Positions 1-49,287 of a stretch of DNA of 64,000 bases are shown here, piece after piece (the stretch's first letter is position 1; every line of letters begins with the position of its first letter). The translations under genes were made by a program, and so were the position numbers. This DNA comes from Bispira polyomma. Its lineage: Eukaryota. Below the pieces are notes generated by a model, which worked only from the letters and a program-made list of their open reading frames with translations, was not told the origin of the DNA and made no database searches. The stretch lies in contig OZ287756.1 in assembly GCA_965649765.1 (NCBI GenBank), forward strand, positions 682,001-746,000, in the 5' to 3' direction.

Positions 1-1863
1 ATAATTAGAGATCAGTAATTCCTGACTAATGTGGTGCCAATTGCAATTTTTAAGGAATGTTACTTTTGTCGTATTTGTGCCACCAGAGTGCGCCCAACGA
101 GAAAGGATATCGGCATAAATATTTGTGACTCCACTAATATGTTCTATGGAAACATCTATGTTATGCTTTGCTTGCAATAGCCATAGTGTGTGTGCACAGG
201 CATTTAAAATATCATCCCTACAAAGCGCCCTATTAAGAACATGAACCACTGCCATATTATCACAGTGAACAGCTATTTTTAAATTGGACCATTGTTTAGT
301 CCACAAGCAAAATGTGACCACAATATTTACCATCTCAAACTGAACAATGGTCAATGTATTGTGATATTCTTGTGGAATGTTCATCCAGTAAACATTATTG
401 TTCCAAAAGGCCCCCATTGCACTTAGCAAGGCGTCCATAAATATATGGTGTGTAGCTTCTGACACTCTATTCATAGCCGTGATACCATTGTACTCGTCTA
501 GGAATTGGCAAAACCAATTAATGTCTTTGTGGAAATCAACTTTTAGCCCTATAGAGACATTGGGGTGGTTCCCCTTAGTACTGCTAAAATTCTATTCACA
601 AAGAGCCTTGCTGGATTTACACAACTATGGATGTAAATGAATTTACCCAGTAGTTTTTGCAGACTCCGTCTGGTAGCCTTAGCCTTTGTTGATCATTGTT
701 CACACAATTGTTTTGCTTCTAATAATCTATCCGTGGCAAGAGTCAATATTCCTGTTTTGGCATTAATATTGATACCTAGACAGGTGAAGCTTTTGGTGGG
801 TGCATCTACCTTATCTTGATTTATTGGTAACCCAAGATTGAGAATTAGATATTTTCGTGTGATAAGCGTTGTTAGCCTTTCCTGGGGGCGCAACTCCTAT
901 ACAGTCATCCATATACGAACAACACCAATGGTTTTTTTTCAACATGAGGTATGTAATTATGTCCGATGTAATTTGGCAGGCGCATGTATCAGAGCGTAGG
1001 CCAGAGGGTATGCTGACATCAACATAGTAATTATTATTTCAATTTAGGACCAGGACGGGTTGGTCAAATGGATCGACCTTAAATTCATATAAGCCGGTTG
1101 CAAATCAATTTTGTACAACAACGTTTTGGGCCCAAGCCTGGCTATTTTGTCTACTATGTTATCTATAGTCGGATATTTTAATTCGAATTGAATATCATCA
1201 AACGCGTTTAGGGAATACCAGAGTTCACACTTGTGCCATGTGGCCACGAGAGATTAACTATAATGCGTCTTGAAGCATTTGGTTTTGGCCATGACATCAT
1301 GGGAGAAACATGAAATGGTTTATAAGGAGGGTCTGTTTAAGGCTCGACAAAGCTTTGTATTTACTCTCTGTGTTTTAAGTCTCAACTAAGTCTGGGAAAT
1401 TTACTGCAGAAGCATGATTCTCAGGACTTTGGTTGTACTGAAAAGCACTATAGTTCAAGGAAAGGGGAAATCCATATTTCAAATATTCGCAGAGTAGAGG
1501 GAAATCATAATCATCTATGTACACACGCCAATTATCAATGTTTAGCTGAGAAGGGACTGGCACCCTGGCCTCTTTATAATTAGCCACATCTCGCAATTGT
1601 GTTGCATTATGTCCCTCCTTTACCCATTGTAACATATCATTGTTATTCAACATGCCAGTATAGTATGTTTGAGACACATTCTCCCCAAGCTTGGTAGTAG
1701 TTCTGTTACCTTTTAACTTTAGATTTGTATCTCTAATGTACCACTCACAATAGCAATCCCCTAGGTGTTTATTCCCCCAGAATTGGTTCAAAACCCCAAA
1801 GCTGTAAGAGCCGTTTATATGTATCAAGACAGGAATTGGGAAACAAGGTGTACTAGCTACCAC
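1..1863 (-). pseudogene. DIRS copy 1 RT/RNase H (frameshifted)
   Basis: ORFs 1375-1863, 1044-1247, 693-893 plus the open-ended RNase H frame. Confidence 0.85.
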
Positions 1864-2490
1864 TGATCCTTCTTCACCCCTGCTTCCTGAGTAGCAGGAT
1901 TCGCTTTAACTTTGCGACTGCATTTTGATTCAGGATGTACATAGTTCTTGTGTACTGTCCTATAACAATACCCGGACGAGTGTTTGAGAAGCTTTCCTCC
2001 CTCGTAGTGGTCACCTTCAAACTTACAGTACCCTTTTGAGTATTTATTGCACACTACTGCTAATGTAGCCTGCTGGCTATTTGGTTTTAATGAGCGTTGT
2101 GCAAACCGTTGTCACACTCGGTCGATACCATCAAGGTCCTCCCAAGATAGATTGCCCAGCTCAATCTCTAACTAGATGTCTGCATGTGCCCTTTTGGTTG
2201 TGGGCCATGAGAGATCCAGCGCATCTTGCATGAGCAAGTATTGATAGTGTAACATATGTTCTTTTTAATTTCTGGGTCCCTCTCGTGTAGCATACACCAG
2301 GCGAAGCCCAGAACCCATTGAAAGATGTTCAGTTCCTCGTATGTGGGCATTTTGAGATTCTCACCTGACATACATAGCTCATGTGGCCATGGGATGAACA
2401 CTTTAATCCTTTGATCACCAATCCAGTATCTACCAGACTTAACAGTACGTGTAAAACCCATACCTGGAATGTCCTCTCACAAGAAGTCCT
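1857..2490 (-). pseudogene. DIRS copy 1 gag C-terminal remnant
   Basis: Two ORF pieces homologous to the gag of copies 2 and 3 (KS[G/Q]R, WP, QWV, Cys/His cluster). Confidence 0.8.
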
Positions 2491-3806: not shown

Positions 3807-4835
3807 TTATCTTGTTTTGTTCCAGATTTCCCTAAACATAAAATGTGTTAGACCACCAAACCCCAATAACCTAGGAGTTATGTAGGATGGAAGCCCTAAA
3901 GAATCCGCCACCTGGGACCCAGCAAACGCCGAATCAGTAATATATCTCCAGACGCAGTCAGACGTCCAAGTGCCCTGTCTCTGTATATCTTGGATTCTGA
4001 CATTATTATTAAATGCGAACGTGGCACCTGAACGTCTGAAAGCATGAAAAGTGAGACCAGTATGCTCACAACCTAACATTTTCAGAACATTTTTTAAATG
4101 TCTACGTACTTTGGAATCAGTGAGCGGAACCCAATTTTGCCCACATTTGAACTGAAAGAGGGGAAGATTACCCCCTTGAGGAGTGATGGCCAGGACATTT
4201 TTAATAGCTGTAACTGGGCAGATGCTGGAACCAGGAAGGGCTGGAATGGTTATAAGCTTAACAACATCTTTAGTTTGAAGGGTTTTTGACCACTTCACCA
4301 ATATAACAGCATAGCCTGGTTTAAACATAATGTCAGCTCGTGCTAGCTGTTTCAAAGGGTCAAAATCCCTGACAGAATGGGGGCACAGATTTGACAAACG
4401 CAGGAAACTGAAAAAGCTAGTTAAATATACAGCTTTGAATACTAGTCCCATATACGTTACATTACATTTCTGGATTAATCTTTCCAGCAGTGTGATATCA
4501 AACAGTGACTTCAATTTTGCTTGCAGAGGTTTACTGACCGCCAGAGCCTTGTTAAAATACTTAATTCTGGTATCGGAAAATGCTTCTACTTGTACATGAA
4601 ACAACACACATTTAGCCTTTATAGCAGAAAGGTAGTTTGCAATTTGTGAAGCTGATACTTTATTACTGTACAAGAACTCTAAAAAGGAGAGCAACTGCAA
4701 TACATTCACCTTTTTCGGGCTCCAATCCATGAAGATCCCAAAAGCTATGAAGGTCCTGAACATTCTATCATACGCTCTAGAGGTAGACAGAGAGAAGGCT
4801 CTGTGAGCTCTTTCACAAGCCTGTCTAGCCAACAT
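3807..4835 (-). CDS. Tyrosine recombinase (YR) of DIRS copy 2
   Basis: 342-aa ORF with the catalytic set FLRLSN (R), KWSKT (K), FHAFRRSGAT (HxxR), QGTWTSDCVWRY (W, Y). The extreme C-terminus is probably frameshifted. Confidence 0.93.
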   Translation of the reverse strand: MLARQACERAHRAFSLSTSRAYDRMFRTFIAFGIFMDWSPKKVNVLQLLSFLEFLYSNKVSASQIANYLSAIKAKCVLFHVQVEAFSDTRIKYFNKALAVSKPLQAKLKSLFDITLLERLIQKCNVTYMGLVFKAVYLTSFFSFLRLSNLCPHSVRDFDPLKQLARADIMFKPGYAVILVKWSKTLQTKDVVKLITIPALPGSSICPVTAIKNVLAITPQGGNLPLFQFKCGQNWVPLTDSKVRRHLKNVLKMLGCEHTGLTFHAFRRSGATFAFNNNVRIQDIQRQGTWTSDCVWRYITDSAFAGSQVADSLGLPSYITPRLLGFGGLTHFMFREIWNKTR

Positions 4836-4882
4836 AAACTCTCCCGGGTGAATGCCTGCAATATATACTATACCATAATTAA

Positions 4883-7439
4883 TTATATGTTCTCATTAAC
4901 ACTGAGCAATGCATCATGCACGGGCAACCATTGGACAGGGCCTAGCAAGTCATGCAATACTTTGTGATCTCTGTTGGTATCAGTCCATCTGGACAACAAA
5001 TCTGCTACTTTGTTTTTTACCCCCAAAATGTGAATGACTTTAATGTCGATGTCAAGTTTACTGACTAGCATATAAATATTGCACGTGTATGTGGCTAAAG
5101 TAGGATCCCTTGTAGATCCGCTTTGCAAAACAGTAACAACTGCCTGGTTATCACACTTAATTAATACACGTTTATTTTGCCAGAGCCGGGCCCATAGTTT
5201 AATTGCCACCAGTATGTTCAACATTTCTAGGTACGCTATGTTTAGTTCAGTCATATGAGTCGGGAGCTTTAGTTGGTACACTTGATTTTGATAAACCCCC
5301 CCCATACCTTTCAAACACGCGTCGAGCTCTACTTGGGCTGTAACTGGAATATGAGAGAAAAAGGAAACGCCATTAAATTGCTGTATAAACACAGAGAACC
5401 AATTTAAATCTCTCCTGAATTCCTGAGTTATGTTTATACGTTTACTGGTCTGATTGTCTCTCAACAACTGAAGCATACGATTTAAGAACGCCCTTGCATA
5501 CTTTACACATTTTGACACGTAGAGTAACAGGCCTAGCAGGGATTGAAGTTCCCGTTTAGTACAAACATTTTTTGTTTCCCATGCTTTGCACGCATTCTTG
5601 ATTGCTTGCAATTTTTTCAGGTGGAATCGAGGTAGTGAGGTGAACTGTGTCTATAGTAATACCCAGGCAGACCACAGATGTGCCAGGATGTACTAACTTT
5701 TTCTCACTGACGGTTAAACCGAGCTCTGTCAAGAGTTCTTGTAATCTCATATACGTTTTCTGTATTTTGCTGGGAAGCGAGACACATAAAAAATCGTTAA
5801 TATAATTGTGGACGTTATAAATTTTCTGTTTTCATAATGTACCTCACGGCATCCGAAATTCTTTGAAAAATTGTGCTGCCGTTCTGATAACCGAACGGCA
5901 GCAATTTATCTGTGTAGTATTTTGTCCAATTTAATCCTAATAGGTCTAGGTCACCAGGATCTATGGGCACGTGACGAAAGGCCCTACTAACGTCCACTTT
6001 AAAGATATGACAACCTTTACCCATTTTAATGACTTCTTGCGTTAGACTGTCCACTGAAGGATATGACAATAGAAACTCAGTGCCTAAATAAGAAGTGGGG
6101 GATACCCCTGCATTTACTGAGTGTCCTTGCGGCCAACTAAGGTCCACAATGACTCTTCTGTTTTCCGAATTTGCTTTATTTCTCGTCATTAGGGGGGGAG
6201 CAATGTAAGTTTCTGATGGGCGGGTCTTCAAAAGGACCTAACATGGCCCCCAGTGCACATTCTTCTGCCATATAGAAGTTTACATGAGTGGGGAATTCAG
6301 TCGCAGATTTATGATTATTTCCATCATTGCGAGTTGTATTTTCTCGACAAAAATCTAACGGAAAGCCATGCTTGATCAGTAAAGGCAACTGTCCCAATAG
6401 TTAATCAAATATTTGTCCCATGCTTTAGTATGTAGCTGCGATTTAACCTGGAGCTTAAGGCCATTAAAGTTAAACCTGCCATCCGCCCTGACACGCTTAT
6501 GTATTTGTAACACGTCTAGTTGTTCAGTTTTCGTGTTTTCTGTGTTATCAATGGGCATGAAATCAGAGAGGGGTGTGAACCCATAAGCCACATCATTCTA
6601 TGCCTGCCAACTTTTGTAATTGTCATTATCTTTTGCCAAGTCTAATAAGAGACCTTTGTTTTTCCTCTGTTTTAGTTCCCATGTGTATTTATCTGAAGGT
6701 ACAATGTACTCATTAGTATTGTCCTCCTTATTAACGTTCTCTTTAGTAGCCAAGCCTGTGTGCAATCTGGTGTTATTGTTCTGAAGCAGGCCTTGGCCCT
6801 TTTGTTGGCTTGGCGCCATTTACCACCATTGCTGTGTTCTGTCTGTGTGTTAGCCCTTGCTGTGTTAACACTAACAGGCCCAGTGTGAATGGCACTTCTG
6901 CCCCTCTCACTACACCTGACAGACACTTTGTGTTTTTTGTTCTTTATTATGGCAACTTTTACACTGGGAATTTCAGATTGATTGTTGTCCCCTTTCCCCA
7001 TTGTGTCAGTGTGAGCCAGAATTGCAAACCTATTATGTAGTGGGAGGGAACCCCGGGTTGAATTGTGTTCACACCTCCTCCCATGTTTCTTGTACACCCC
7101 TTTTGTCCCTTTGTCAATAGCACTCACAATAGGATTGATTTTGTTCACGCCTACCTGCGCTACACCGCTGGGTGAATTCACTTTGTCACACTTGTGCACC
7201 CTACTGTGTGTATTACCTGTTTGTAACCCTCTGTGCATGTGACTTTCAATAGATTTAGTATTGTTAGTACTCTTTTTTACTACGTCGCTATACTTGACAG
7301 AAATACTCTTGCCTCTTGAACATTTTCTGTACAACCGACTTTTGAAATAAAGCTACATCCCTAAACTGCGTATTATATACAACTCTAGTGAAGACTTTGT
7401 TGTTCACATTTTGATCCACTGCACTTATGCAGTGGCCCC
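4883..7439 (-). pseudogene. DIRS copy 2 pol (linker + RT + RNase H), multiple frameshifts
   Basis: RRVIVDLSWPQGHSVN, KVDVSRAFRHVP, LPFG, NYIND (catalytic D>N, ~5795), LDACLKGMG, KCDNQAVV, HILGVKNKVADLLSRW. Confidence 0.93.
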
Positions 7440-7449
7440 TTAGTTTTTT
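7416..7449 (-). promoter_or_regulatory. Candidate -1 ribosomal frameshift signal, DIRS copy 2
   Basis: A_AAA_AAC in the gag frame, 7-nt spacer, stem CCACTGCA-TAAG-TGCAGTGG. Confidence 0.7.
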
Positions 7450-8419
7450 ACTGCCTTTTTGGGGCACATGCTGCTCCTGTGACTACTGTCACAGGTTTCG
7501 CATGTATGTTTATAGAACTGCGTACCGGTTTTATGACTAGCCGAATGTTTGCATGTGCCATCCTGAAAATACCGACACGTGACCGTCCCCTGTTTGAAGT
7601 TATTTTTCTTTTGACTATTTCCCAAAGTACGAGTGCCTGCCCCTATACCGGGTTGACCTGAATGCAAATGTCTCTGAGCATGGGCTCTATGGATTCTGTC
7701 TACCTTTTCAATGTCGGACCATTTTAACTTGTCCATTTCCATATTCGTAAGCACGACTGCATGGCAAGCTTTAGCAGCCTCCCAGGAAAAATCCTGGGCA
7801 TCCTCCATCAAGCCAGCCATGTAGTCGAGCATAGCATTTTTATTCTCTTCCGATTTCTCTTCTTGTATTATTCTCGTAAAGCCACACACCCATTGAACCA
7901 CAGTTAAGTCATCATAGCTGGGACGTGCTTTGATACTGCCCGATAGAACATGATTGTGGGGCCATTCTACAGTTCGTTTAACCAGAACTTCCGATCCCCC
8001 TCCCCTCTGGGATTTGATCTTACCTTGGGAAGGGCTCTCGTTAATTTGTCATTGGGAACAATACTGGTCTCAGGTATTTCGGCGCTCTGACGGCTATCGC
8101 CCAAGTTTACAGAACTGACCCTCGAGACTGAATTTTCACTTGCCTGATTGTTAGAATTTCCCGCCAGTGCTGCCTCTGTGAGCTGAACCAGTCGATCCAT
8201 GCTCTGAACTGCCTGACTAATCGACTGCAACTGTTTCAATATAACAGTCGACATATCTCCCTCACCAGACACTGACGCTGAATCCGACGGGTCCACCTCA
8301 GCTGAGTCAGCACCTGCATTCTCCAAAGATATGTCCAAAACATTACAATTTCGACCAACAGGCCTTGGGTGTTTCCCCAAACATTTGGAGCAGTACACAC
8401 TCGAACAACGTGGCATCAC
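7440..8419 (-). pseudogene. DIRS copy 2 gag
   Basis: N-terminal CSKCLGKHPRPVGRNC; GKIKSQRGG..VEWPHN; C-terminal CRYFQDGTC..H..HTCETC..H..C. Internal deletion/frameshift near 8050. Confidence 0.88.
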
Positions 8420-8439: not shown

Positions 8440-10232
8440 ACTAAAAGGGCAGTCCATATTTAAGAAATTTCAGTTTTAAGTGGGCTGATACTGGACCCTG
8501 CCATGAGGTAGAACTCACTAAGTGCCAATATCCCAAACAAAATCACCATAGTTGAAAGCATTGAGGCCCCAAGATTGTAGACTAGTATTTCCTGATAACC
8601 TTTTACATGTTAAAAACCCTGATGTGGGGCCAGACTAAACACCCAATTAATATGCACAGGTTCATTTGGGGGTTAAGTGTTTCTTGGTATGTCCAGGGTT
8701 TGTGGCCCATTCCATGTAATGGTCTCTGCACAATTAGCACAAAACGACAGTGATATATCTTGACTGTATTGCAATAGCATTGCAAACTAGGAACATAGTC
8801 TGTCCATGTAAAAAGCAAATATCTGTCTAGGATGGGGGGGCACCCCGAGTATATTGTGAACATAAATAGTAAAATGGGGCTGGGGTTGAGGGGTCCTAGA
8901 TTCTCCCGGATCTGCCAATGAACTTGAATTTAGTTGTGTTTGCTTCACTTTCAACTGCTAAGGTTTTATCATGATTGGCTGATTTAATTGGTTGTTGGAG
9001 GAAAACAGTTCTGAAGCAATGTAACCCAATGATATATGACATTTAGCTGACAATCTTTCAAACATGAAGTAACAAAATATGTTGCTCCTTTGTTGGGTTA
9101 CTGAAATAGTCTGCCTTGAATCTTGCATAATTGCAAACAATTTTTAAATGTTAATAAGACCCCTGCAGTCTTTGTTGATTGTGTATATGTTTGTCTGAAC
9201 GAGAGGGTTTTTGTTTGGTCTGTGTATTATCATTGCTTTGTGTTGTGCTCATCCTCTCAAATCACAGACAACAATTACCATTTTTTCCAGGTAGAAAACG
9301 CCAAATACCCCTATGTCTTTTTTTGAGGACATTAATAATGTCAATGTACTTCGACTGCCTAAGGTCATGTGTAAAGGGTTACTTTGGCACTCTATAATGT
9401 CTGTGATTTAAATTTAAAACAAGCTCATTGTGTGTGTAGGTCTGTGGAATAATTCCTATAATTGGAACATTGTGGTAAGCCATTGGGGTCCTTTGACGTC
9501 ATCCTGTCTTCTAGAAGGACATGAAGGTAACCATCTCCTTGATTGGGAAATGTTCAGATGTCATGATCTCCAGCAGTGGATGGAGATATAAGTAGCTTTT
9601 TTTAAGTAGTAGGAGGGTTTATTGTTTAGAGAAAACAATAACAGGTATTCTCAGAAATACATGAGGACTAAAAGAGGACAGGTTATTTGAGGTTAATAAG
9701 AAAGTTTGAGTAGCTTCCTGGGGTAATCTCAGTGTGAATTTTTTGGTGGAGTGGCGGTTGAATGGCGTGTGAGTCTGACTAACCTATTATATGATAGACC
9801 ATATTACAGTGGAATTTAAGATTTAGTTGGTCCTCATTTCACAACGGTTGGATTTAATGTGAATAAAACCTGTGCTGAAGCACACTGTAAGCCACCGAGC
9901 TAAGGCAAGTACCTAAAAAAGTTTCCCTCATGAAGGTACAAACACAATACAGACTCACATTGGGGAGAGGCCACAGAACGTATCCCCATATCTTAGGTGT
10001 ATTTATTTTTTTCACATTCAGTTCATATCAGTGTAAAACCTCTATATAACGGTCCAACCAAATATATTCACTAATCAGAGGTACCTTACAATTAACACAA
10101 ATATCAAAACTGAACCAGAAAGAAGTGTTCACTATATTGAGGTGTTCACTATAGCAATGGTGTCAACTCTGTCAGGATATGTGACCTCATCACACTGCCT
10201 TGGATGTTGTTATATTTAGACAATATGGCTGA
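8440..10232 (+). repeat. 1793-bp direct duplication, copy 1 (X1)
   Basis: Matches 12109-13901 at offset 3669; no differences spotted; ORF translations identical. Confidence 0.97.
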
Positions 10233-12108: not shown

Positions 12109-13901
12109 ACTAAAAGGGCAGTCCATATTTAAGAAATTTCAGTTTTAAGTGGGCTGATACTGGACCCTGCCATGAGGTAGAACTCACTAAGTGCCAATAT
12201 CCCAAACAAAATCACCATAGTTGAAAGCATTGAGGCCCCAAGATTGTAGACTAGTATTTCCTGATAACCTTTTACATGTTAAAAACCCTGATGTGGGGCC
12301 AGACTAAACACCCAATTAATATGCACAGGTTCATTTGGGGGTTAAGTGTTTCTTGGTATGTCCAGGGTTTGTGGCCCATTCCATGTAATGGTCTCTGCAC
12401 AATTAGCACAAAACGACAGTGATATATCTTGACTGTATTGCAATAGCATTGCAAACTAGGAACATAGTCTGTCCATGTAAAAAGCAAATATCTGTCTAGG
12501 ATGGGGGGGCACCCCGAGTATATTGTGAACATAAATAGTAAAATGGGGCTGGGGTTGAGGGGTCCTAGATTCTCCCGGATCTGCCAATGAACTTGAATTT
12601 AGTTGTGTTTGCTTCACTTTCAACTGCTAAGGTTTTATCATGATTGGCTGATTTAATTGGTTGTTGGAGGAAAACAGTTCTGAAGCAATGTAACCCAATG
12701 ATATATGACATTTAGCTGACAATCTTTCAAACATGAAGTAACAAAATATGTTGCTCCTTTGTTGGGTTACTGAAATAGTCTGCCTTGAATCTTGCATAAT
12801 TGCAAACAATTTTTAAATGTTAATAAGACCCCTGCAGTCTTTGTTGATTGTGTATATGTTTGTCTGAACGAGAGGGTTTTTGTTTGGTCTGTGTATTATC
12901 ATTGCTTTGTGTTGTGCTCATCCTCTCAAATCACAGACAACAATTACCATTTTTTCCAGGTAGAAAACGCCAAATACCCCTATGTCTTTTTTTGAGGACA
13001 TTAATAATGTCAATGTACTTCGACTGCCTAAGGTCATGTGTAAAGGGTTACTTTGGCACTCTATAATGTCTGTGATTTAAATTTAAAACAAGCTCATTGT
13101 GTGTGTAGGTCTGTGGAATAATTCCTATAATTGGAACATTGTGGTAAGCCATTGGGGTCCTTTGACGTCATCCTGTCTTCTAGAAGGACATGAAGGTAAC
13201 CATCTCCTTGATTGGGAAATGTTCAGATGTCATGATCTCCAGCAGTGGATGGAGATATAAGTAGCTTTTTTTAAGTAGTAGGAGGGTTTATTGTTTAGAG
13301 AAAACAATAACAGGTATTCTCAGAAATACATGAGGACTAAAAGAGGACAGGTTATTTGAGGTTAATAAGAAAGTTTGAGTAGCTTCCTGGGGTAATCTCA
13401 GTGTGAATTTTTTGGTGGAGTGGCGGTTGAATGGCGTGTGAGTCTGACTAACCTATTATATGATAGACCATATTACAGTGGAATTTAAGATTTAGTTGGT
13501 CCTCATTTCACAACGGTTGGATTTAATGTGAATAAAACCTGTGCTGAAGCACACTGTAAGCCACCGAGCTAAGGCAAGTACCTAAAAAAGTTTCCCTCAT
13601 GAAGGTACAAACACAATACAGACTCACATTGGGGAGAGGCCACAGAACGTATCCCCATATCTTAGGTGTATTTATTTTTTTCACATTCAGTTCATATCAG
13701 TGTAAAACCTCTATATAACGGTCCAACCAAATATATTCACTAATCAGAGGTACCTTACAATTAACACAAATATCAAAACTGAACCAGAAAGAAGTGTTCA
13801 CTATATTGAGGTGTTCACTATAGCAATGGTGTCAACTCTGTCAGGATATGTGACCTCATCACACTGCCTTGGATGTTGTTATATTTAGACAATATGGCTG
13901 A
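12109..13901 (+). repeat. 1793-bp direct duplication, copy 2 (X2)
   Basis: Matches 8440-10232. Confidence 0.97.
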
Positions 13902-16759: not shown

Positions 16760-18130
16760 TTGCATTGTATTGTATTTTACATTTTTAATGCGCCTTATTG
16801 ATGCTAGGGATCTTCTGAGGCGCAACATCAGAATCAATCAGCCAATAAAAAATGACAAAAACATAGCCAGGTTGTAAGGATAGATGCGTCAGTGCCCAGG
16901 AAGAGGACTACGTCGGATGGGCTAGCCTAAAGAGATAAATTTTAAGCCTTTTGCTAAAACCAGAAAGCGTATCAAGCAGTCTAAGTTCAACTGGAAGACT
17001 ATTCCATATTATAGGGGCGGCTACCGAGAAGGCTCTAGATCCAACCCTCTTAGTGGGTTTATTAGAGGAAACAGAGAGTCTTTTGCCCCTTTTAAGGCTG
17101 CTGAAGGAGAGCTTAGTAGCGAGGTAGTGAGGCTGTTGAGAGACAACAGCTTTAAAATCAGTTTTGTCAGGGTTTAGTTTCAGTTTGGAGTAGTTCATCC
17201 ACGCCTGAACTGAGGAGAGACAGTCGGCAAGTAAATCCAGGTTGTATCCGGCATTCTGAGTGTTAAGGGAGAGATAGATTTGAGTGTCATCAGCATATAT
17301 GTGATGTTTAACATTGTGATTATTGATGACTGCACTGAGAGGATGGGAGTAGAGAGTAAACAGTAAAGAGCCGAGAACCAACCCCTGGGGTACTCTAAAT
17401 GGTAGGTTAAAAGAGGATGGAAAGTGGTAGCCAAATTTGATTTTTTGGGTTCTATGAGCAAGGTACGATTTGATCCAATCAAGGACAGTACCATTAAGAC
17501 CAAACCACTGCTTTAGGTTGTCAAAGAGTAAGCGATGGTCGATGGTATCAAAAACTGCGAAGAGATTGAGAAGAGTGAGGGCTACAGTTTCATTATAATC
17601 CAAGGCAAGGTTAATGTCATCACTGATTAAAAAGAGAGCACTTTCCGTGTAGTAAAATTTTCTATAGGCAGATTGGTGGCAGTTTGCTAGATTTTGTTTA
17701 TTAAGGTGGTTATGAATTTCTTCAGCAACAGCTTTCTCAAAAAGTTTATATACAAAGCTGACGTTAGAGACTGGTCTATAGTTTTTTAGTCCATTTTTTA
17801 AGGCCTGGTTTTTTTCAGTAGGGGGCGACATATGCAGTTTTGAAACAGGAGGGAAATATACCATCTCTAAGCGAAAAATTTATGATATTGGTGATAGGAG
17901 TTATGAGAATGTCTAGACATTCTGTGAGAACAGCAACAGGGATAGGATCTAGTTCACAGGGTTTGATGTCATTAGTTTTTATGAGTTTGAGAACATTGTT
18001 TTCGGAAAGTGGGTTAAAATGTAGCAGATTTGAGACTTTATAGCTAGGGGATGGTGGAGAGAACTGTAGCATTGTTGAAAAACCTTCTCAAATTTTAGTT
18101 ATTTTTTCAATGAAAATTTTTCCAATTTTC
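16760..18130 (-). mobile_element. L2/CR1-group LINE, 5'-truncated, internally deleted
   Basis: CELDPIP, NYRPVSN, QSAYRK, FDTIDH, VPQGLVLG, YADDTQIY, LKLNPDKT, RAFSVAAPIIWNSLP; 3' UTR with (TACAA)n tail. Confidence 0.93.
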
Positions 18131-20280: not shown

Positions 20281-21581
20281 TAATATTTTAAATGAAATCA
20301 TTTCCTGGATGTAATGATAAATTAGAAAGATACTCAGTTGAGCTGATACCTCTCCCAAGGTTACACAGTGCCCATATCAGTCAAATAAGAACGTGTATTT
20401 CTTTAGTCTTTCTTGGTCGCTACCTCTTCCAAATTAATGGAATGTGTTCAGTTGTTTGTTAGTGTAATCCTGTTGATAAACAAATAATAGAACCAATGGA
20501 TACAGGCAAAAACTTAATGTTTGTGGAGAAGGCGACTAAAAATACTCTTCTTATATATATCATAATATTGTGTGTCAGCAAAAGAGAATAATATATGAAA
20601 TCATTAATCTTATCAACCCGAGATTATGCGCATTAAACGAAAGTGTAAGTATTTTATTCATATTCTAAAATAGTGAAAGTTAGATTTTATCAAATAACAG
20701 ACACTTTCCATCTGAAATGTATTATAACACGGTTCCATGTCATGGACATTTCATCATACATACATGACAACTAATTTTGCAAAACAAAACACATTTAAAA
20801 TACACCAAAAAATGTCGATTATAAGATTATAAGAGTTTATTGAAAATTAGGTAAGAAGTTTTATTTTATGGCGATACTTTTTGTTGCATCAAAATATTTG
20901 AGAAAAGGCCAAGATATTTTAGTTTAAATAGGAGTAGAGTGTATTGCACAAAGATAGAACAGCCACACTTTATCTACAGTGTTTATACATTTTTACATTG
21001 GCAAAAGACGTGTTTAAAAGCATTGAGCAGCTTACCATTTGAATATTGATTTTATTATTTTCTGAATACATTTTTTGTTACATTTGAATTAAGTTTTGTA
21101 TCCAATAAATCTCACAGCATTGTTTCATTACTCTTCTCAGACTTCACAAGAGACAGAAAGTGGGTAGTCATGTTGTTCTATTTGTAACAAATAAAAAGGA
21201 AAAATAACATAAAATAAACAGAAGGCAAACCTCATTTCCCCAAACAAATCTCTTCATATCAAGCAGAGAGTCTCAACAAGTGTTTGGTGATAAGAACAGC
21301 AATAACAAATGTTGGCACTAATGAGGTGGATATTTTTATTTGATGTTTGAAATCAAAGATTTGTAACCAGAGCAGAAAAATCGAATCTACATTTAACCAA
21401 AAACTGATGTAATTCTTGTTACAGTTAAGTTTTTTATTGTAAGGCAGTGGTTTGGATCAGATGTAGACAGTGTCAAGTTGTCAAGTTTCTTATTGCCATC
21501 ATTTTTATGTAAGAAGTGCATGTTTCATCCTTGATAATTTGGACTAAGTCCCTCCTCTGAACATAAATATTGCCCTGGGAG

Positions 21582-21744
21582 GAGTCCATATACGATCATT
21601 GACAGACACATTGAGGTCCAATTACGATCATTGACCGACACATTGAGGTCCAATTACGATCATTGACAGACACATTGAGGTCCATATACGATCATTGACA
21701 GACACATTGAGGTCCATATACGATCATTGACAGACACATTGAGG
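21582..21744 (+). repeat. 32-bp minisatellite, 5 copies
   Basis: Unit GAGGTCCATATACGATCATTGACAGACACATT. Confidence 0.97.
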
Positions 21745-23652
21745 GCAGGTATTCACAAAGATTCTTAAATTTTTGTCCCAACCCATTTCATTGCCTTAAA
21801 ATATTGTTTCTATGAATCATATTGGCTGAGACTGAGAAAGTTCTAAGAATGTTTGTTAATATAATCCCTAATTAAACTATTATCCAGTAAAATGAAATAC
21901 AAGCTTGTGGGGATATTACAAACAGAAGTTTTGTATTGATATAATAAACATATTATGTATAAATGGTTCCACACCAATAACTACACCCAGAGGCCAAGGA
22001 AGGTCCTAGTATTCTAACCGGAGCAATTGCTGTTCATTGCAAGCAATTTAACACTAATGCATTATGCATGGAACCATTATGTAGAGAGCAGTGATATACT
22101 GCCGATAGGAAAGGTGAAAACCATGAAATGCAGACGAAAGGACATTATATGAGGTCAGTTTGACATGACAGATTTAGACATCAGCTCAGTAAAGGACAGC
22201 TGATAGTCAGTGACGGGGGATATTATAAGTACAACTACTATTTGATGATCTAATGGTAGATTTGAAATATAACTGGTTGGAGAAAAAATTATATTGCTTG
22301 ATTGTAATTTATCAAACTAAATAAATCGAGCATAACCAGTTCGAGCCAAGTCTCTGCTGGAAGTCATCTGTTGGTAAAATACAAGCAATGTAAATATTTG
22401 AAGGATGTTTGGTTATAAGTAATAAATAAGCGATTTATTTTCCTTACTGACCGTAATTCTCTAGGCTATTGAAATGTGCAACAAAAACGACAGAAATGGT
22501 GTGATTGTGCTAACTAATAACTAGATTGATTAGCAAGCACAATCGATATTGTTTAAATGTATAACTTAATAAGTACCGGCTGTTATATATTTTTAGAAAA
22601 CATTAACTCCAGTCCATTGACCCTGCACACTTTTTGTGGGGGCCAAAATGCCCATATACCCAGGGTGTGTCCAGTAAGTTGACAGATTACAGCCATTCAA
22701 GAATCAATGTAGTTTTAATTAATCACTATCTATGTCAATAAATAGAGTCACATCTTAAATATTTATAATTCTGTACCATGTATAAGGTTTAGTTGGCCCA
22801 CAAAACATCCATTGCACTCCTTGTGATTGTCTATTGTAAGATCTTTCTATAAGAGTAATTGTGTTTTAGAAACATTGGCAACCATAGCTATGTTAGTAGT
22901 TGAATATATTAGTATTTTATTGTATAAACCAAATTAATGCTAATTCTCCACATATTTCAGGGCAGTCAACAAATATATTAAATGTCACCATTTGACTAAT
23001 TTGCTGCCCTTCGCCTTTGTCTCAGTTTCCATGTTCCCTGCCAAGTCTCAATTGTACCACAACAACTATAGCAACACTCGTCAGCAATAGCCAAAGTTAA
23101 TGACATAAACCTTACTGACCCTAGCAACTTGCTCATAAATCCGACCTGGACCTTGAACAGAAGATGGTCAGGTTACTTGATTGCTTAGGACGATTCTGGT
23201 TTATCTCACAACATTGATATGAAGGACAAATATTGTGTTGTAGAACTGGGTGTCTACTATGATTCTCATATATTGGATACATTAGTCCATTACATTCAGA
23301 CGTCACTGTTTTTAGCAAAAGGTGCTAATAAAACATTCATACTGTTCATTCATCAATTAATAACGTTATGAATGGATTTATTTAAATACAAAATATGGAA
23401 ATTATTCTCTATAGTAACCACACTAAGAGTTTTACATAGTAACACAACTCACTCTAATCAAATGTAATAAAATTGGGTAAAAACCGGTTAAAGAAAAAAT
23501 CACAAAATCCCTAGCCTCTGACGAGACCTTTAATAGATAAACATATGTGCAAATAAAATATACATATGTTGAGTGAGATCACTTGAATTTTCACAGACAT
23601 TATTTTTTTTATTTGTTCTGAGAACACATTACCATGTCAAAGATTGGGCTCA

Positions 23653-24768
23653 CAGTCATTTACCTCACAGCCATACAGTCATTCTATATAACTACGCCAG
23701 ACGTTAATACACCTTCAACAATATGACAGTCATTTACCTCACAGCCATACAGTCACTCTATATAACTTCACCAGACGTTAATACACCTTCAACAATATGA
23801 CAGTCATTTATCTCACAGCCATACAGCCACTCTATATAACTACACCAGGCGTCAGTACACCTTTAACAATATGACAGTCATTTACCTCACAGCCATAGAG
23901 TCACTCTATATAACTACACCAGGCGTCAGTACACCTTCAACAATATGACAGTCATTTACCTCACAGCCATACAGCCACTCTATATAACTACACCAAGCGT
24001 CAGTACACCTTTAACAATATGACAGTCATTTATCTCACAGCCATACAGTCACTCTATATAACTACACCAAGCGTCAGTACACCTTTAACAATAAGACTGT
24101 CATTTACCTCACAGCCATACAGCCACTCTTTTTAACTACACCAGGCGTCAGTACACCTTCGACAATATGACAGTTATTTACCTCACAGCCATACAGTCAC
24201 TCTATATAACTACACCAAGCGTCAGTACACCTTTAACAATATGACAGTCATTTACCTCACAGCCATACAGTCACTCTATTTCACTACACCAGACGTTAAT
24301 ACACCTTCAACAATATGACAGTCATTTACCTCACAGCCATACAGCCACTCTATATAACTACACCAGGCGTCAGTACACCTTCAACAATATGACAGTCATT
24401 TACCTCACAGCCATACAGTCACTCTATTTCACTACACCAGACGTTAATACACCTTCAACAATATGACAGTCATTTACCTCACAGCCATACAGCCACTCTA
24501 TACAATTACACCAGGCGTCAGTACACCTTCAACAATATGACAGTCATTTAGCTCACAGCCATACAGTCACTCTATTTCACTACACCAGACGTTAATACAC
24601 CTTCAACAATATGACAGTCATTTACCTCACAGCCATACAGTCACTCTATATAACTACACCAGGCGTCAGTACAGCTTTAACAATATGACAGTCATTTACC
24701 TCACAGCCATACAGTCACTCTATATAACTACACCAGGCGTCAGTACACCTTTAACAATATGACAGTCA
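23653..24768 (+). repeat. 74-bp minisatellite, ~15 copies
   Basis: Unit ACAGTCATTTACCTCACAGCCATACAGTCACTCTATATAACTACACCAGGCGTCAGTACACCTTCAACAATATG. Confidence 0.97.
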
Positions 24769-25309
24769 GGCCTTAAGGACAAAAAACTGAAACGGAACAA
24801 ACACAAGACTAAAATTCGCCAACAGAAGAGAACACAGATTAAAAAAGCCATACTTGGTTTTGTTAGTAATGTGTAATCTTATCGATATTTACAAGCCCTT
24901 GTGCCTTGCAATAACTATCAATAAATAGTTTTATTTAGCATCCAGGATTTTTCACTTTTTCACTCATGAAGAAGAACAGTGAAACCTGTTAGACGTCAGG
25001 GGATCCAGCCCAAAACCAAACTGACTTGATCCCATTGATTTGAGGAAGAGACATTTACCCTGGTATCCTACCAAAGGGGGAAATCCATTGATAGTCACAT
25101 AAGCCATACATTTATTTATATATGAGATATAAATAACCTTGAAAATACTAAAATCAAAAGGAACAAACATTGTACTTTGATTCACAGCAAAGTGCAGGTT
25201 TATCAGAATTACAGTAAACCCACATATTTATATTTCAAAAGCTGACAAAGGGGTAGTACTGAACATAGCAGACTACATCAGAGAAGGCTTCAGACAACTC
25301 AGTGACACT

Positions 25310-39485: not shown

Positions 39486-39786
39486 CGTGTTAGTGAGCCA
39501 TTGAATTGGACATTATTGCAGACATAACTTGGATAATTTCATATTTTTAATCAACAACTTTTCACGAGTAGTACAGTATTAAGTACAGAATTAAATATTT
39601 AGTGTTTTAATACATATCCCAAAAGTCTTTTTTATATATAAAATTAGACCCAAAATAAAATTAATGTTTGAATAAGGAACATAGCATATTAAGAATACCT
39701 ATAATTAAACAGATAAGTTAAATCTAGTTACATTTGCCCCTCAAAAAGTTGATGGTATACAATAAAATACAAGGCTAAAAGTTAAA

Positions 39787-42742: not shown

Positions 42743-42773
42743 TTCTTTTAACCTGACATTTGTCACACCTTTA

Positions 42774-43219: not shown

Positions 43220-43379
43220 TTAGGGTCGAATATACATGGACGTTTTTGCTTCCGATTCTGTCATACATCAAAAAAACTGGCCGATTTTTCTAGTATTGAT
43301 TTCTTTTACTACCAGTGTTCAAATGTAAATAATATTGTGTGTCTGTTTAATGATCACATAATTTGGTGTATATTCACTA

Positions 43380-44857: not shown

Positions 44858-45849
44858 CTAGACAGTAGGGGACGGGTTAAGGAGAGACTGAAGGGCCAGA
44901 GCTACTTGGTCGGAAGCAGCGTGGTCTTGAGTTATGTACCTCCATACGCATTCAGACGACCAAATGCCCTGGCTCTGAATGTCCTGGAGGGGGACATGGG
45001 CATTGAAGGCCAGTGTCGCTCCAGAGCGGCGGAAGGTATGAAAGGTAATATTAGCCTCTGATTTTCCTGCCCTGGTAAGAATATTTTTTAAATTTGAACG
45101 GATTTTAGAGTCTGTTAATGGAATCCAGGTGAGATTATTCTTAATTTGAAACAAAGGAGAATTTGTGTTACCAGGTGTGATGGTAAGTAAAACCTTTACA
45201 GCCCTGACTGGGCAAATGATAGTATTCTATAAAGAAGGAATTTTTATTACCTTAATGGTATTTCTGGACTGTAAGGTTTTTGTCCACTTAATAATGATAT
45301 GGGCACCAGGAGGGGCGAAGATTATGTCAGCCCTAGCTAACTGGTGTAAGGGTGAGTATGTAGCGATGGAGTGGCGGACTAGATTCGAGATACGAAGAAA
45401 GGAGAAGAAAGCTAAAAGGTAGGCAGCTTTATATATTTGTCCCATAAACATGGAATCACATATTATTGCTATCTTTTGCAACAGTTCAATATCAATGATA
45501 CCATTTATTTTTGCTCTAAAGGGTTTCTGTAAAATGAGAGCTTTCTGAAAGTATTTAATTCTCTGATCTGCAAAGGCCCCCACTTATAATCCAAATAACG
45601 ACATTTGGGCCTTAATGGCTGAGAGATAATTAGATACTGAAGTATGAGAGGTATTATTGACCACTAGCACCTCTAAAAATGCTAGTAATGACAGTGGAGT
45701 AACATTCTCAATAGAAATGTGAGCAAAACATCAATAGGCTAAAAATACTCTAAACATGGCTGAATATGCCTTTTGAGTAGATGGTCGGAAGGCTTGCTGA
45801 GCTCTATTGGCTGCCCTGTCCACAAGCCTAGTCACCCAGGTTGAAGTAC
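44858..45849 (-). pseudogene. DIRS copy 3 tyrosine recombinase (stop + frameshifts)
   Basis: AFRPSTQKAY, FLRISNL, KWTKT, FHTFRRSGAT, QGIWSSECVWRY. Confidence 0.93.
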
Positions 45850-45865: not shown

Positions 45866-48225
45866 CTAAATAGACCAGTTTATGTCTAGGAGGTCATCTT
45901 CGATCTGAAGCCATGTGGGATTTTCCATTACTTGACTTAGTTTGTGTTTGTTATTGGGTGTAATTGTCCATTTAGAGGGGAGATCAGTTATAATGTTTCT
46001 TTTACCTAAGATATGTACGGTTCTGAGCTCTATGTCGGCTTTTGCCGCTTCCATGAAAATATTTCGAGTCATAGCGGTCAAGGTGAGATTATAGGTCTTA
46101 CCTGAATTCAAAATTGAGACTATGGCCTGGTTATCACAATGAACCAGTAACTTTTTGCCTGACCATTGATTTTTCCAGACTTTTATGGCAACTAAAATAT
46201 TTAACATTTCCAAATGTACAATGGTATAATCTTGAAAACCCAGAGGGATTTCTTTGGTGTAGACTTTATTATTACAGCAAACACCTAAGCCCTGAAGGCA
46301 GGCATCCAGGTGGACTTTATTAGTAACCAGTTTGTGATCAAAGAATGCTACTCCGTTAAAACTAGTGAGAAACATATTAAACCAGTTTAAGTCTTGCTGG
46401 AAAGCCATGTCTAATTTTATATTGTTAGCTTCTCTAGCCCCTCTGTGTCTAACATCCTATTGAGGTATGCCCTCGAAGTTCTGACACATTTTGAGACACA
46501 AAGAAGTGAACCTAAAAGTGATTGAAGTTGTCCTTTTGTACAAACTTTTTTGTCTTTCCAAATTTGACATATCTGCTTGATTTCCTTTAATTTGGCATCT
46601 GGAATTGAAACTGTGAAGTCCTCAGTGTTTACTAGGACACCTAAACATACTACTTTGGTATCAGGGGCTACCACCTTTTTCTCACTTATAGCAAAACCGA
46701 GTCTATGAAAAACTTTTTTTAATAACTCAAATGATTTGGAGACTGTGGCCGGAAGTCCGTAAGCAATGACGTTGTCGATATAATTTATTACGTCGCGACC
46801 CTTTGACGTCATGATAAACCTTATGGCGTCACTGAGTCTTTGAAAAATGGCGCTACCATGGCGATGGCCGAATGGGAGACAAGTGTCAATATAATAGTCC
46901 CCAAGTTGTAATCCTAGTAAATCATAGTCTTCTGAATCTATTTTTACATGTCTAAATGCACGGCTAATATCCAACTTGTACAGAAGAGAACCTTTGCCTA
47001 ATTTAATTATATTTCTAGTAATGTAGAGTCAAAATAAATGGAGTACCTAAGTATTGTTCTTTTTCTATGGCTGAGTTTACAGCACAACCCTGTGGGAAAC
47101 TTAAGTCAATAATCACTCTTCTATGTTTTGCTTCCGGCTTTGGGTGTGTCATGAAAGGTGAAACGTGAAGATCAGGTAATGGAAGTTCTTTAAAAGAACC
47201 AATTATCACCCCAAAGTGTTTTTCCTCCTTAAGATAAGCCTTGACGTCGTCTTTATATTGAATAGCCAAACTATGATTATCCCCCTTGTTTTCTGAGGGA
47301 GAGGCTCTATCAAAATCTAAAGGGAATCCAAATTTTATCAGATGAACTAATTGGCGATCCCAATAGTGTTTCAGTAGAGTTTCTCACTCTGCAACATTTT
47401 ACTGTGATTGAACAGGAATTTGAGCGCCTAGGTAATTTGGTAGGCTATATCTTTTTTAACCATGTTGTTCTTTGCACGAGCCTTTACTTGTTTGGGCAAT
47501 TTTGCATCCCCCAAGGGAATGAAGCCAAACTTTTCTTTATTTTAAACATTCCAAGACTTAAACAGAGCATTAGCTTGTGCCATTGACACAGCGTCTCTAT
47601 GTTTCCTTTTAACTTGTAATTGGAGTTCATATTTATCCCCCATTTGTAAACTCGAGTTTGTTTGATCAGAAGTGTTTACATTGGTTTTACTATCATTATC
47701 ATCATCTGACAAGTTCTGAAGGGTTAAGAACCTATTGTGACAATGTATTTGATTGTTGACACTTTTTGTTACACCTTTATGAAAGGTGCGACTTTGACCA
47801 TTGTTACCCAGTTTGGACTGAGAAGGGGGGCTTTTTTGGACAAGTTGGGGTTTCACACTTTCCCGGAAGGTGTGACTTTTGCTTTTTACATCTGAAATTC
47901 TGTAATTGAAAACATTATTTGAACACACATTTGAATACATTTTGTTCTTAATATGTGGGTGACAACTGGAGGCCCGACTTTGTTTATAGATTTGTTCTTT
48001 TCTATTTTGATGTTGGTACTGATTACCCTTATTTTGAGCCACAACTTGTGCCTAAGATTTATTTGCAAACCTAGCCCAATTGGCCCTCCAGTTGTCACTG
48101 CATCCAGCATACACATTTGCATTATGTACAATCTTTGAAGAACAATACTTAGTTTGATCTTTGATATATACAGTATTAGTACAAGTATCTAATATGACAT
48201 TTGTGCACTGCTGTACTGCAGTGCC
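45866..48225 (-). pseudogene. DIRS copy 3 pol (linker + RT + RNase H)
   Basis: RRVIIDLSFPQG, DISRAFRH, CLPFG, NYIDN, LDACLQGLG, HCDNQAIV. Confidence 0.93.
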
Positions 48226-48238
48226 CTATTCGTTTTTT
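48205..48238 (-). promoter_or_regulatory. Candidate -1 ribosomal frameshift signal, DIRS copy 3
   Basis: A_AAA_AAC in the gag frame, 7-nt spacer, stem GCACTGC-AGTACA-GCAGTGC. Confidence 0.7.
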
Positions 48239-49287
48239 GCGACATTTGTTTCTAAACCTTTGACTTTATTTCTGTGACAATCCTTAGATGCATGGCGAAA
48301 GGATTTGCCTATTGTAAAGCAAGTGGAACAAACGTGTAAATACATTTGTCCTTTAGTCTCGTGATCCGCTTTGTTTGGGCACGAACCCTTTTGAAAGTAC
48401 CTGCAGGGGATTCCCCTATCAGTGCTGGCCCTAGTTTTGCTATATTGAGATGAAGAAATCGTATTGTTGATAACCTTTTGGGCATGTGCCCTTCTTATCC
48501 TATCGATTTTGGCAGTTTCATCCCAGGAAACCTTACCCTCTTCCATGCGACATAATAATACCGCATGGCCGCTTTTCGCAGCTGGCCAAGAAAAACCGTG
48601 GCAATCCTCCATGAGATTCTGGACATAGTCCAGCATTGCATTTTTTGTGTCAACATTACTCTCATCCCTTACTATGGAACAGAACCTTGCTACCCACTGA
48701 GCCATTGAAAGGCTAGCGTATGTTGTCCTGGATTTAGCAGTACCACCCAAAATGTTATTCTTAGGCCACGCAACCTGACGTTTGACCCATACAGTTTCGT
48801 TTCCCCCTCTTTGAGACTTGAAATTACCTTTCTCGTTTAAGTTGGCTAGATCTCGCAGTCTGGAGTCAACAGCATTCTGGAGGTACTCTGATTTCTTCAG
48901 TGTCATCAGAGAAGGAACCAACGTATCATCTGTGCTCACAGCCACTGCCGGAACTGCCGGGGGGGGTGGGAACCATCATCGGCGTTGGAGCCGCCTGACT
49001 CGCACTAGCTGTCGGCACGGGAAACACAACAGGAGCAGGATTTACAGGGGTTACAGTAGAACTATTAACACTTTGTCTATTCTCAAATTGCTCTACTCTC
49101 TTTTCCATGGCCGACATTCTGCCACTAAGGCCTTTAAGTTCTTCCAGAATATGTGCATTGATAGACATATCAGAAGTGTCATTATAGTCATTGTTCTGTG
49201 GTTGGTTTACAAACGGACAGTTATCATTAATTGCTCTTTGTGGCTTGATTTACAAGCTCTACATTCATGATTTGCACGGGGTGCCAT
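48226..49287 (-). pseudogene. DIRS copy 3 gag
   Basis: MAPRANHECRACKSSH (CxxCxxxH); GNFKSQRGG..VAWP; CRYFQKGSC..H..HVCSTC..H..C. Confidence 0.9.

What the first reader, a model, noticed from the sequence alone, without database searches (positions are those of the whole stretch)
7416..7449. Conserved -1 frameshift cassette at the DIRS gag/pol junction
Seen: copies 2 and 3 both end gag with A_AAA_AAC, exactly 7 nt of spacer and a perfect 7-8-bp stem with different loops (7416-7449; 48205-48238), though the flanking linker does not align. The -1 frames read KLRGHCISAV and KRIGHCSTAV; in copy 2 it stays open ~50 codons while frame 0 stops at once. In copy 1 the pol frame (1863-1375) overlaps the gag end in the -1 frame, though no heptamer survives. 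Established: A_AAA_AAC is a known retroviral slippery site (e.g. MMTV gag-pro). Caveat: in copy 3 the -1 frame closes after ~19 codons and frame 0 is mostly open, so stop readthrough is an alternative. With the splice, one promoter could yield Gag, Gag-Pol and GagN-YR.
Basis: partly seen in the sequence, partly recalled or inferred. Interest (0 to 1): 0.75.

Follow-up and report, generated by a model that had tools for sequence, protein, structure and literature searches.

The report
Frameshift signal in Ngaro-like retrotransposons
A family of tyrosine-recombinase jumping genes carries, at the end of its first gene, the same kind of slippery sequence and RNA hairpin that retroviruses use to make ribosomes slip back one letter, which most likely explains how these poorly understood elements make their reverse transcriptase.

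Summary
Confirmed, on the minus strand. Two decayed copies end ORF1 (gag by position) with A_AAA_AAC, a 7-nt spacer and a 7-8-bp hairpin; among 803 slippery-type heptamers in the window only these two have such a stem. Homologous proteins show a family-wide signal: 22 of 26 gag clusters end in KN(E/D); intact pol ORFs open in the -1 frame across the hairpin; natural gag-pol fusions run on through the site only in -1, whereas frame 0 and +1 close within 34 codons. Copy 3's open frame 0 reflects a break just after the hairpin, so readthrough is rejected there. The elements lack the methyltransferase and look Ngaro-like, not DIRS1-like. Copy 1 is another lineage without the cassette, and three distant relatives instead have gag and pol in frame across one UGA-C, a readthrough-type junction. 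The recombinase ORF follows a splice-acceptor-like site in 5 of 5 elements examined. Programmed -1 frameshifting is well known in retroviruses and was surmised for Ngaro elements; I found no defined cassette in the papers searched. No RNA or ribosome data were available.

The parts
7443..7449 (-). Copy 2 slippery heptamer A_AAA_AAC, in phase with the last two gag codons (K N)
7436..7442 (-). Copy 2 7-nt spacer; its first three bases are the gag stop TAA (7442-7440)
7416..7435 (-). Copy 2 stimulatory hairpin, 8 bp with 4-nt loop; encodes HCISAV in the pol frame
   Evidence: DNA-level conservation boundaries at 7416 and 7449
48232..48238 (-). Copy 3 slippery heptamer A_AAA_AAC in gag phase
48225..48231 (-). 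Copy 3 7-nt spacer containing the gag stop TAG (48228-48226)
48205..48224 (-). Copy 3 stimulatory hairpin, 7 bp with 6-nt loop; encodes HCSTAV in the pol frame
7440..8416 (-). Copy 2 ORF1 (gag by position; C-terminal Cys/His fingers), broken near 8045
   Evidence: no Pfam family
4883..7449 (-). Copy 2 pol (about 300-codon linker, RT, RNase H; no methyltransferase), broken at several places (near 7315, 6800, 6400, 6240, 5830, 5620); RT frame is net -1 to gag
3807..4855 (-). Copy 2 tyrosine recombinase ORF, behind a YAG acceptor-like site ending at 4856
48226..49287 (-). Copy 3 ORF1 (gag by position), broken; upper end approximate
45866..48238 (-). Copy 3 pol, broken; first break lies within about 20 codons after the heptamer
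44858..45849 (-). Copy 3 tyrosine recombinase region (broken), behind a YAG acceptor-like site ending at 45850
1857..2476 (-). Copy 1 gag end (other lineage; no heptamer or stem; stop TAG at 1859-1857 followed by CTAG)
1..1905 (-). Copy 1 pol pieces (short linker, RT, RNase H), heavily broken, cut by the window edge

Best explanation
The 34-nt element is a canonical eukaryotic -1 programmed ribosomal frameshift signal that expresses pol of a Ngaro-like tyrosine-recombinase retrotransposon clade. Ribosomes translating ORF1 meet a short GC-rich hairpin 7 nt after A_AAA_AAC; most continue to a frame-0 stop 0-6 codons later and release Gag; a minority slip back one base (tandem slippage of tRNA-Lys and tRNA-Asn) and make Gag-linker-RT-RNase H. 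Shown: the motif, its phase, its family-wide conservation, and the -1 offset of intact pol. Inferred: that ribosomes actually shift, the rate (probably a few to about ten percent for a simple 7-8-bp stem; my estimate, no call), that the fusion stays uncleaved because no protease is encoded, and that it fixes the Gag to Gag-Pol ratio. The two window copies are themselves dead.
For: Only 2 of 803 window heptamers carry such a stem, both at gag ends. Of 78 homologous gags reaching the last finger (of 120 listed), 54 end in KN(E/D)* or KN*, 13 more carry KN(E/D) plus an extension; the residue before KN is S/A/T/P/L in all 67, never one that cannot end in A (17.5% of neighbouring residues); 22 of 26 clusters at 70% identity; 81 of 100 further cluster members with the finger. 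In 647 fetched proteins, six read through the site as KK[RL]xxHCxxAV and continue 61-840 residues into pol, while all 24 frame-0 readings end within 20 and all 9 +1 readings within 34 residues. HCxxAV occurs 29 times in 262,304 residues, always at this junction; in 13 of 13 distinct peptides the next residue has a C-starting codon, as pairing with the 5' G requires. Of 2,183,742 gag-end/pol-start overlaps tested per shift, one fits in -1 (P0013/P0212, same listed contig length) and forces A_AAA_AAC, 7 nt, GCACTG; none fits +1. 33 of 37 long pols with the linker motif start M-[PQLHR], the GTG-C of the stem's 3' arm, and in 33 of 37 the first internal Met lies after that motif. In copy 2 the -1 frame matches the start of intact pols P0233/P0203 and RT is net -1 to gag. 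Divergent contigs match exactly 7416-7449 and diverge outside; depth peaks there in 3 of 3 runs. A_AAA_AAC is among the most shift-prone heptamers and 5-9 nt is the usual spacer (PMC5009743, passages).
Against: No RNA, ribosome or reporter data; no RNA holder listed. DNA of the cassette is in hand for two copies only, plus one inferred from a protein pair; covariation rests on one pair. The hairpin is short (about -13 kcal/mol; z only -2.2 in copy 2). Many homologues share contig lengths and probably come from few assemblies, so the clusters are not independent hosts. The fused ORFs may be mutated copies or homopolymer assembly errors (they still report the frame). One pol cluster (P0202, 48 members) keeps KKR in -1 but not HCxxAV, so the stem is not universal. 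ORF1 has no Pfam hit and no clear fold match, so 'Gag' rests on position.
Confidence: 0.9

Rival explanations
1. Stop-codon readthrough: pol is in frame 0 and the hairpin stimulates readthrough of the gag stop, as in gammaretroviruses.
For: Copy 3 has TAG-G and a frame 0 open for 57 codons that carries the pol linker motif. Distant relatives L052-L054 do have in-frame gag-UGA-pol junctions.
Against: All 24 frame-0 readings end within 20 residues; intact pols carry HCxxAV in frame with RT; the stop lies 0, 1 or 5-6 codons after the heptamer in different families (for example 12 listed members of the P0007 cluster end KNESGTA*) while the heptamer-stem distance stays 7 nt; copy 2's frame 0 has four stops in 32 codons.
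Confidence: 0.02
2. Termination-reinitiation or non-AUG initiation: after the gag stop ribosomes restart in the -1 frame at the AUG of an AUGA overlap or at the GUG in the stem, giving a separate Pol.
For: Four pol clusters begin MRHC, which is the AUG of a GAA-UGA overlap; AUGA stop-restart is used by victoriviruses and caliciviruses (PMC3542737, passages).
Against: Copies with TAA or TAG have no AUG there (both window copies); it does not explain the invariant A_AAA_AAC in slippery phase at a fixed 7 nt from the stem; the GUG is buried in the stem.
Confidence: 0.04
3. The conserved CAG in the 3' arm is a splice acceptor for a spliced pol message.
For: CAG|TG is present in both copies; the same elements appear to use splicing for YR.
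Against: U content before this CAG is 0.19 and 0.12 against 0.44-0.81 before the five YR acceptor-like sites, and copy 3 has three AGs in the exclusion zone; it explains neither the heptamer nor the complementary 5' arm.
Confidence: 0.02
4. The dyad CACTGC-N6-GCAGTG is a DNA or RNA replication or recombinase site (arms plus 6-bp core resemble tyrosine-recombinase sites; recalled), and the K-N-E end is a protein motif.
For: Perfect dyad with a fixed 6-nt core in both copies and in all 13 junction peptides.
Against: Arms of 6-8 bp are short for such sites (recalled); a protein motif would not force AAA-AAC or a preceding A; pol would still need a way to be translated in -1.
Confidence: 0.02

Closest known systems
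-1 programmed ribosomal frameshift signals of retroviruses (MMTV gag-pro, HIV-1, RSV) and animal Ty3/gypsy elements
   Same: X_XXY_YYZ heptamer in gag phase, 5-9-nt spacer, 3' RNA structure, pol in -1 (PMC5009743 and PMC3542737, passages). That MMTV gag-pro uses A_AAA_AAC is recalled; the passages read call it among the most shifty heptamers.
   Different: Stimulator looks like a simple 7-8-bp hairpin with a variable loop, not the MMTV wedge pseudoknot; host element has a tyrosine recombinase, no protease and no DDE integrase.
Ngaro-like retrotransposons (order DIRS)
   Same: gag, RT/RNase H without methyltransferase, YR in that order with little overlap (PMC3266345, PMC9210276, passages). Relatives L052 and L054 show direct repeats and a GDSL/SGNH hydrolase ORF after YR. 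Frameshifting was surmised for Ngaro by Poulter and Butler 2015 (seen only as a quotation in PMC13003380).
   Different: That quotation concerns the RT/RH-to-YR junction and names no signal. Here the defined signal is at gag/pol, and the pol/YR junction looks spliced. Split direct repeats were not found around the window copies.
Totivirus Gag-Pol (yeast L-A)
   Same: -1 frameshift gives a Gag-Pol fusion at a set ratio and targets the polymerase to the particle (PMC3542737, passage).
   Different: dsRNA virus with an RNA polymerase; particles of YR retrotransposons are not shown here. That L-A lacks a protease is recalled.
DIRS1-like and PAT-like elements
   Same: RT/RNase H plus tyrosine recombinase.
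   Different: They carry a methyltransferase domain after RNase H; absent here.

Membership tests
Canonical eukaryotic -1 PRF signal | X_XXY_YYZ heptamer in the phase of the upstream ORF | tested here: met
   K-N ends in 22 of 26 gag clusters
Canonical eukaryotic -1 PRF signal | 3' RNA structure 5-9 nt downstream | tested here: met
   7 nt, 7-8-bp stem, z -2.2 and -4.6; one compensatory pair only
Canonical eukaryotic -1 PRF signal | Downstream ORF in -1, open from the heptamer, without its own conserved AUG | tested here: met
   an AUG does occur in four clusters with a UGA stop
Canonical eukaryotic -1 PRF signal | Ribosomes shift; transframe protein made | not testable with these tools
   no RNA holder listed; needs a reporter or profiling
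Order DIRS (YR retrotransposons) | RT and RNase H with a tyrosine recombinase ORF | tested here: met
   RVT_1, RNase H-like and Phage_integrase hits in copies 2 and 3, several below Pfam's cut-off
Ngaro-like | No methyltransferase after RNase H | tested here: met
   48 of 51 pols with the RNase H end motif (of 120) stop 33 residues later; no Dam hit in 8 of 8 long pols at E 0.1
Ngaro-like | Order gag, RT/RH, YR with little overlap | tested here: met
Ngaro-like | Split direct repeats A1-B1-A2-B2 | tested here: inconclusive
   none found around the decayed window copies; direct repeats of 455-460 bp flank the distant relative L052
Ngaro-like | RT/RH groups with reference Ngaro elements in a tree | not tested
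   no named reference sequences were available; tree holds unnamed relatives only
DIRS1-like | Methyltransferase domain in pol | tested here: not met
DIRS1-like | Inverted terminal repeats and internal complementary region | tested here: inconclusive
   only short inverted repeats downstream of YR; no match to the 5' side
Retroviral-type Gag | Capsid-like fold in ORF1 | tested here: inconclusive
   model pLDDT 82; best Z 5.1 against unrelated helical proteins; no viral match at E 0.001

The most novel reading that the evidence does not exclude
Tyrosine-recombinase retrotransposons have arrived at the whole retroviral expression toolkit from one transcript: one Ngaro-like clade makes Gag-Pol by a -1 frameshift at a minimal 34-nt cassette, sister lineages make it by readthrough of a UGA-C or UAG-CUAG stop (so the recoding mode has switched within the group, as between beta- and gammaretroviruses), and the recombinase comes from a spliced message rather than from the second frameshift assumed in the review literature. 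With no protease, an uncleaved Gag-RT-RNase H made at a fixed ratio would point to particle assembly in a group where particles are not established.
Probability: 0.45. Interest if true: 0.75.

Novelty: new member of a known kind. Interest (0 to 1): 0.58.

Why it matters
How YR retrotransposons express their second and third ORFs has been guessed from overlaps, not defined. This gives a precise, 34-nt, directly testable frameshift cassette conserved across gag families only about 45-60% alike, extends canonical -1 frameshifting to a retroelement order where I found no mapped signal, and corrects annotation: gene callers start pol at the stem's GTG. The readthrough-type junctions in distant relatives and the splice-like YR junctions suggest a general expression scheme for Ngaro-like elements. 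The mechanism itself is textbook, which caps the surprise.

Tried and rejected
No whole genome is held for the window. Gag-based scans for DNA of relatives found none: viral contigs, metagenome contigs, prokaryote genome contigs; an RT-based scan of viral contigs found none. A cassette pattern scan of metagenome contigs gave 51 loci, 0 of 51 with gag or pol homology: chance or unrelated, dropped. The pattern count in the window (2 found, 0.01 expected) is circular because the pattern came from the two copies; not used as evidence. No RNA holder listed. The read-laying tables were cut (288 letter rows, 361 loose-end rows not shown), so per-base conservation inside the cassette could not be read. 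Terminal repeats not resolved; the 1,793-bp exact duplicate upstream of copy 2 has no partner at the 3' end and was rejected as a split repeat. Fold searches of ORF1 and the protein-atlas look-up gave no named match. Cluster look-ups gave no usable names, so host range is unknown. The careful gag tree did not finish; the quick tree was used. Earlier scan findings: none by sequence or by the full word set. Poulter and Butler 2015 is not held.

Full report
Observation. The finding lies on the minus strand. Copy 2 reads heptamer A_AAA_AAC (7449-7443), a 7-nt spacer that starts with the gag stop, and an 8-bp stem with a 4-nt loop (7435-7416). Copy 3 reads the same heptamer (48238-48232), a 7-nt spacer holding the gag stop one codon later, and a 7-bp stem with a 6-nt loop (48224-48205). 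A scan of both strands for any XXX-AAA/TTT-[ACT] heptamer with a perfect stem of at least 7 bp at 5-9 nt returned these two sites only, of 803 heptamers (criteria chosen after seeing the finding). Folding z-scores are -2.2 and -4.6. The outer pair is C-G in one copy and G-C in the other; with two sequences this is a single event and the shuffle control says nothing. The -1 frame is open 53 codons in copy 2 and 20 in copy 3.

The elements. The window is AT-rich eukaryotic DNA with satellite arrays; the host is not known (probably an invertebrate animal; inference). It holds three decayed elements with ORF1, RT/RNase H and, for copies 2 and 3, a tyrosine recombinase. Intact homologous pols end 33 residues after the RNase H end motif in 48 of 51 that show it (of 120), and none of 8 long pols hits a methyltransferase or protease family. 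By the definitions in PMC3266345 and PMC9210276 (passages) this excludes DIRS1-like and PAT-like and fits Ngaro-like. Split direct repeats were not found around these old copies, and no tree with named references was possible, so Ngaro membership is likely, not proven. ORF1 is gag by position only: no Pfam family, and the fold searches were inconclusive.

Family-wide signal in gag. No DNA of close relatives could be fetched, so I read the signal from proteins. Of 120 listed gag homologues, 78 reach the last finger; 54 end in KN(E/D)* or KN*, 13 carry KN(E/D) with an extension and 11 end otherwise (several visibly truncated or shifted). The residue before KN is S, A, T, P or L in all 67, never one whose codon cannot end in A, although such residues are 17.5% of the neighbouring tail. 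At 70% identity, 22 of 26 clusters show the end; among 132 further cluster members, 81 of the 100 with the finger do. Among representatives below 50% identity the KN end dominates a supported clade (SH-aLRT 98; 38 of 47 database rows) that contains copies 2 and 3, and also occurs outside it (quick tree). Contig lengths recur between families, so many of these proteins probably come from few assemblies.

Frame of pol. Among 647 fetched proteins, six cross the site as KK[RL]xxHCxxAV and continue 61-840 residues, into the conserved pol linker; all 24 that cross it in frame 0 stop within 20 residues and all 9 in +1 within 34. Some of the six are gag-pol fusions that may be mutated copies or assembly slips in the A run; either way they show which frame is pol. 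HCxxAV occurs 29 times in 262,304 residues, every time at this junction, and the residue after AV has a C-starting codon in 13 of 13 distinct peptides, as the stem's outer G-C pair requires; the pol clusters nearest copy 2, whose pair is C-G, start with A, E or D instead. Testing every gag end against every pol start (2,183,742 overlaps per shift), one pair fits in -1, none in +1; the pair shares a listed contig length and forces A_AAA_AAC, 7 nt and the 5' arm. The gene caller starts 33 of 37 long pols at M-[PQLHR] (22% expected); fused forms show V at that place, so the 'start' is the GTG of the 3' arm, and the first internal Met lies after the first conserved motif in 33 of 37. In copy 2 the -1 frame matches the start of intact pols and RT is net -1 to gag.

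DNA-level support. Contigs of three runs (at most two samples, one study) laid at 80% likeness peak in depth over 7392-7479 and over the most conserved gag motif; in run X1, 12 contigs have loose ends at 7449 and 6 at 7416, the exact borders of the cassette. Depth is not copy number and the tables were cut, so this shows an island of conservation and no more. Length differences to sibling contigs near 7315 and 6800 mark where copy 2 is broken.

Mechanism. Shown: motif, phase, conservation, -1 offset. Inferred from established work (PMC5009743, PMC3542737; passages): the hairpin at the mRNA entry channel delays the ribosome on A_AAA_AAC, tRNA-Lys and tRNA-Asn slip back one base, and a minority of ribosomes make Gag-linker-RT-RNase H. 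The stop sits 0, 1 or 5-6 codons after the heptamer in different families while the heptamer-stem distance is constant, which fits frameshifting and not readthrough or reinitiation. An AUGA overlap in four pol clusters keeps reinitiation alive as a minor rival; the stem's CAG is a poor acceptor. Against: no RNA or ribosome data, a short stem, and one large pol cluster (P0202) that keeps the -1 KKR but not the HCxxAV stem.

Limits of the cassette. Copy 1 groups with gags that do not end in KN (12 of 13 database rows in a weakly supported group; best hits 42-47%), has a short linker, no hairpin and a TAG-CTAG stop context. Three more distant elements, found as host-like contigs inside bacterial genome bins (RT 36% identical), have gag and pol in one frame across a single TGA followed by CTA-G, CCT or CGT; UGA-CUA is a type II readthrough motif (PMC3542737, passage). 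Two of the three are close relatives of each other, all have an AUG within 12-50 codons, and no 3' structure stood out, so this is a lead. One carries a GDSL hydrolase ORF after YR, a feature reported for amphibian Ngaro. In 5 of 5 elements examined (copies 2 and 3, L052-L054) a YAG acceptor-like site in the same phase follows the pol stop within about 30 nt, which favours a spliced YR message; no RNA joint was seen.

Prior knowledge and novelty. Nine full-text searches found no mapped gag/pol frameshift signal in DIRS-order elements. Passages read: PMC6681497, PMC3266345, PMC3783388 (also sections 14, 15), PMC8547959 (also section 11; its listing counts one 'frameshift' that the held text does not show), PMC9210276, PMC13003380, bioRxiv 2022.06.16.496473, PMC3542737 and PMC5009743 (first 300,000 of 449,034 characters, no hit for DIRS, Ngaro or tyrosine recombinase). 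No supplements were read; family tables in them may bear on frame offsets. Poulter and Butler 2015, seen only as a quotation, already call programmed frameshifting probable for the Ngaro RT/RH-YR overlap; I recall, unchecked, that the original Ngaro papers say much the same of the gag overlap, and the library lacks most subscription papers. So the idea is probably not new; the defined, conserved cassette appears to be. Verdict: real, about 90% likely a functional -1 frameshift signal in active members, a new member of a known kind; interest 0.58.

Noticed in passing
L052:3878-3884, L053:2905-2910, L054:1708-1713: Distant YR elements have gag and pol in frame across one TGA followed by C (TGA-CTAG in L052), a readthrough-type junction instead of the frameshift cassette.
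   Followed up: partly
window 1853-1859 (-): Copy 1 gag stop is TAG followed by CTAG; its lineage may use readthrough and the present -1 offset may be decay.
   Followed up: partly
window 4856-4875 (-), 45850-45868 (-); L052 near 5705, L053 near 4795, L054 near 3603: YAG acceptor-like site in the same phase just after the pol stop in 5 of 5 elements; suggests YR is made from a spliced message rather than by a second frameshift.
   Followed up: partly
window 7476-7495 (-): Perfect 8-bp hairpin 26 nt upstream of the copy 2 heptamer (60-nt region z -5.8); absent in copy 3. Could be an attenuator or chance.
   Followed up: partly
window 8440-10232 and 12109-13901: 1,793-bp 100% identical direct duplicate ending 24 nt before the copy 2 gag start; recent duplication or assembly artefact.
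   Followed up: no
window 3511-3525/3742-3756 and 44558-44597/44780-44821: Short inverted repeats and many CTTAA/TTAAG motifs downstream of YR in copies 2 and 3; no partner found on the 5' side.
   Followed up: partly
proteins P0202, P0273, P0248, P0090, P0322: Subfamilies that keep the K-N (or -1 KKR/KKQ) signature but have a different downstream peptide, suggesting the same heptamer with a different stimulator.
   Followed up: no
L054:4694-5269: Fourth ORF with a GDSL/SGNH hydrolase domain after YR (E 2e-12).
   Followed up: partly
L052, L053, L054: Eukaryotic-type retrotransposon contigs sit inside bacterial genome bins of GTDB; probably host contamination.
   Followed up: no
window 7291-7400 (-), 48030-48150 (-): The long, variable pol linker holds a short conserved block (R-V-x-Y-N ... 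N-W-R-x-D-W ... Y-A-Q-V-V) of unknown role right after the shift site.
   Followed up: partly
window 16908-17879 (-): Unrelated reverse transcriptase fragment (RVT_1, E 2e-26), probably a non-LTR element.
   Followed up: no
window 56944-57435 (+): NADAR domain ORF (E 2e-16) with neighbouring ORFs to 58428.
   Followed up: no
window about 21550-21780, 23500-24840, 25300-28200, 39700-43300, 50900-51850: Tandem arrays with periods of 32, 74, 59-60, 41 and 147 nt.
   Followed up: no
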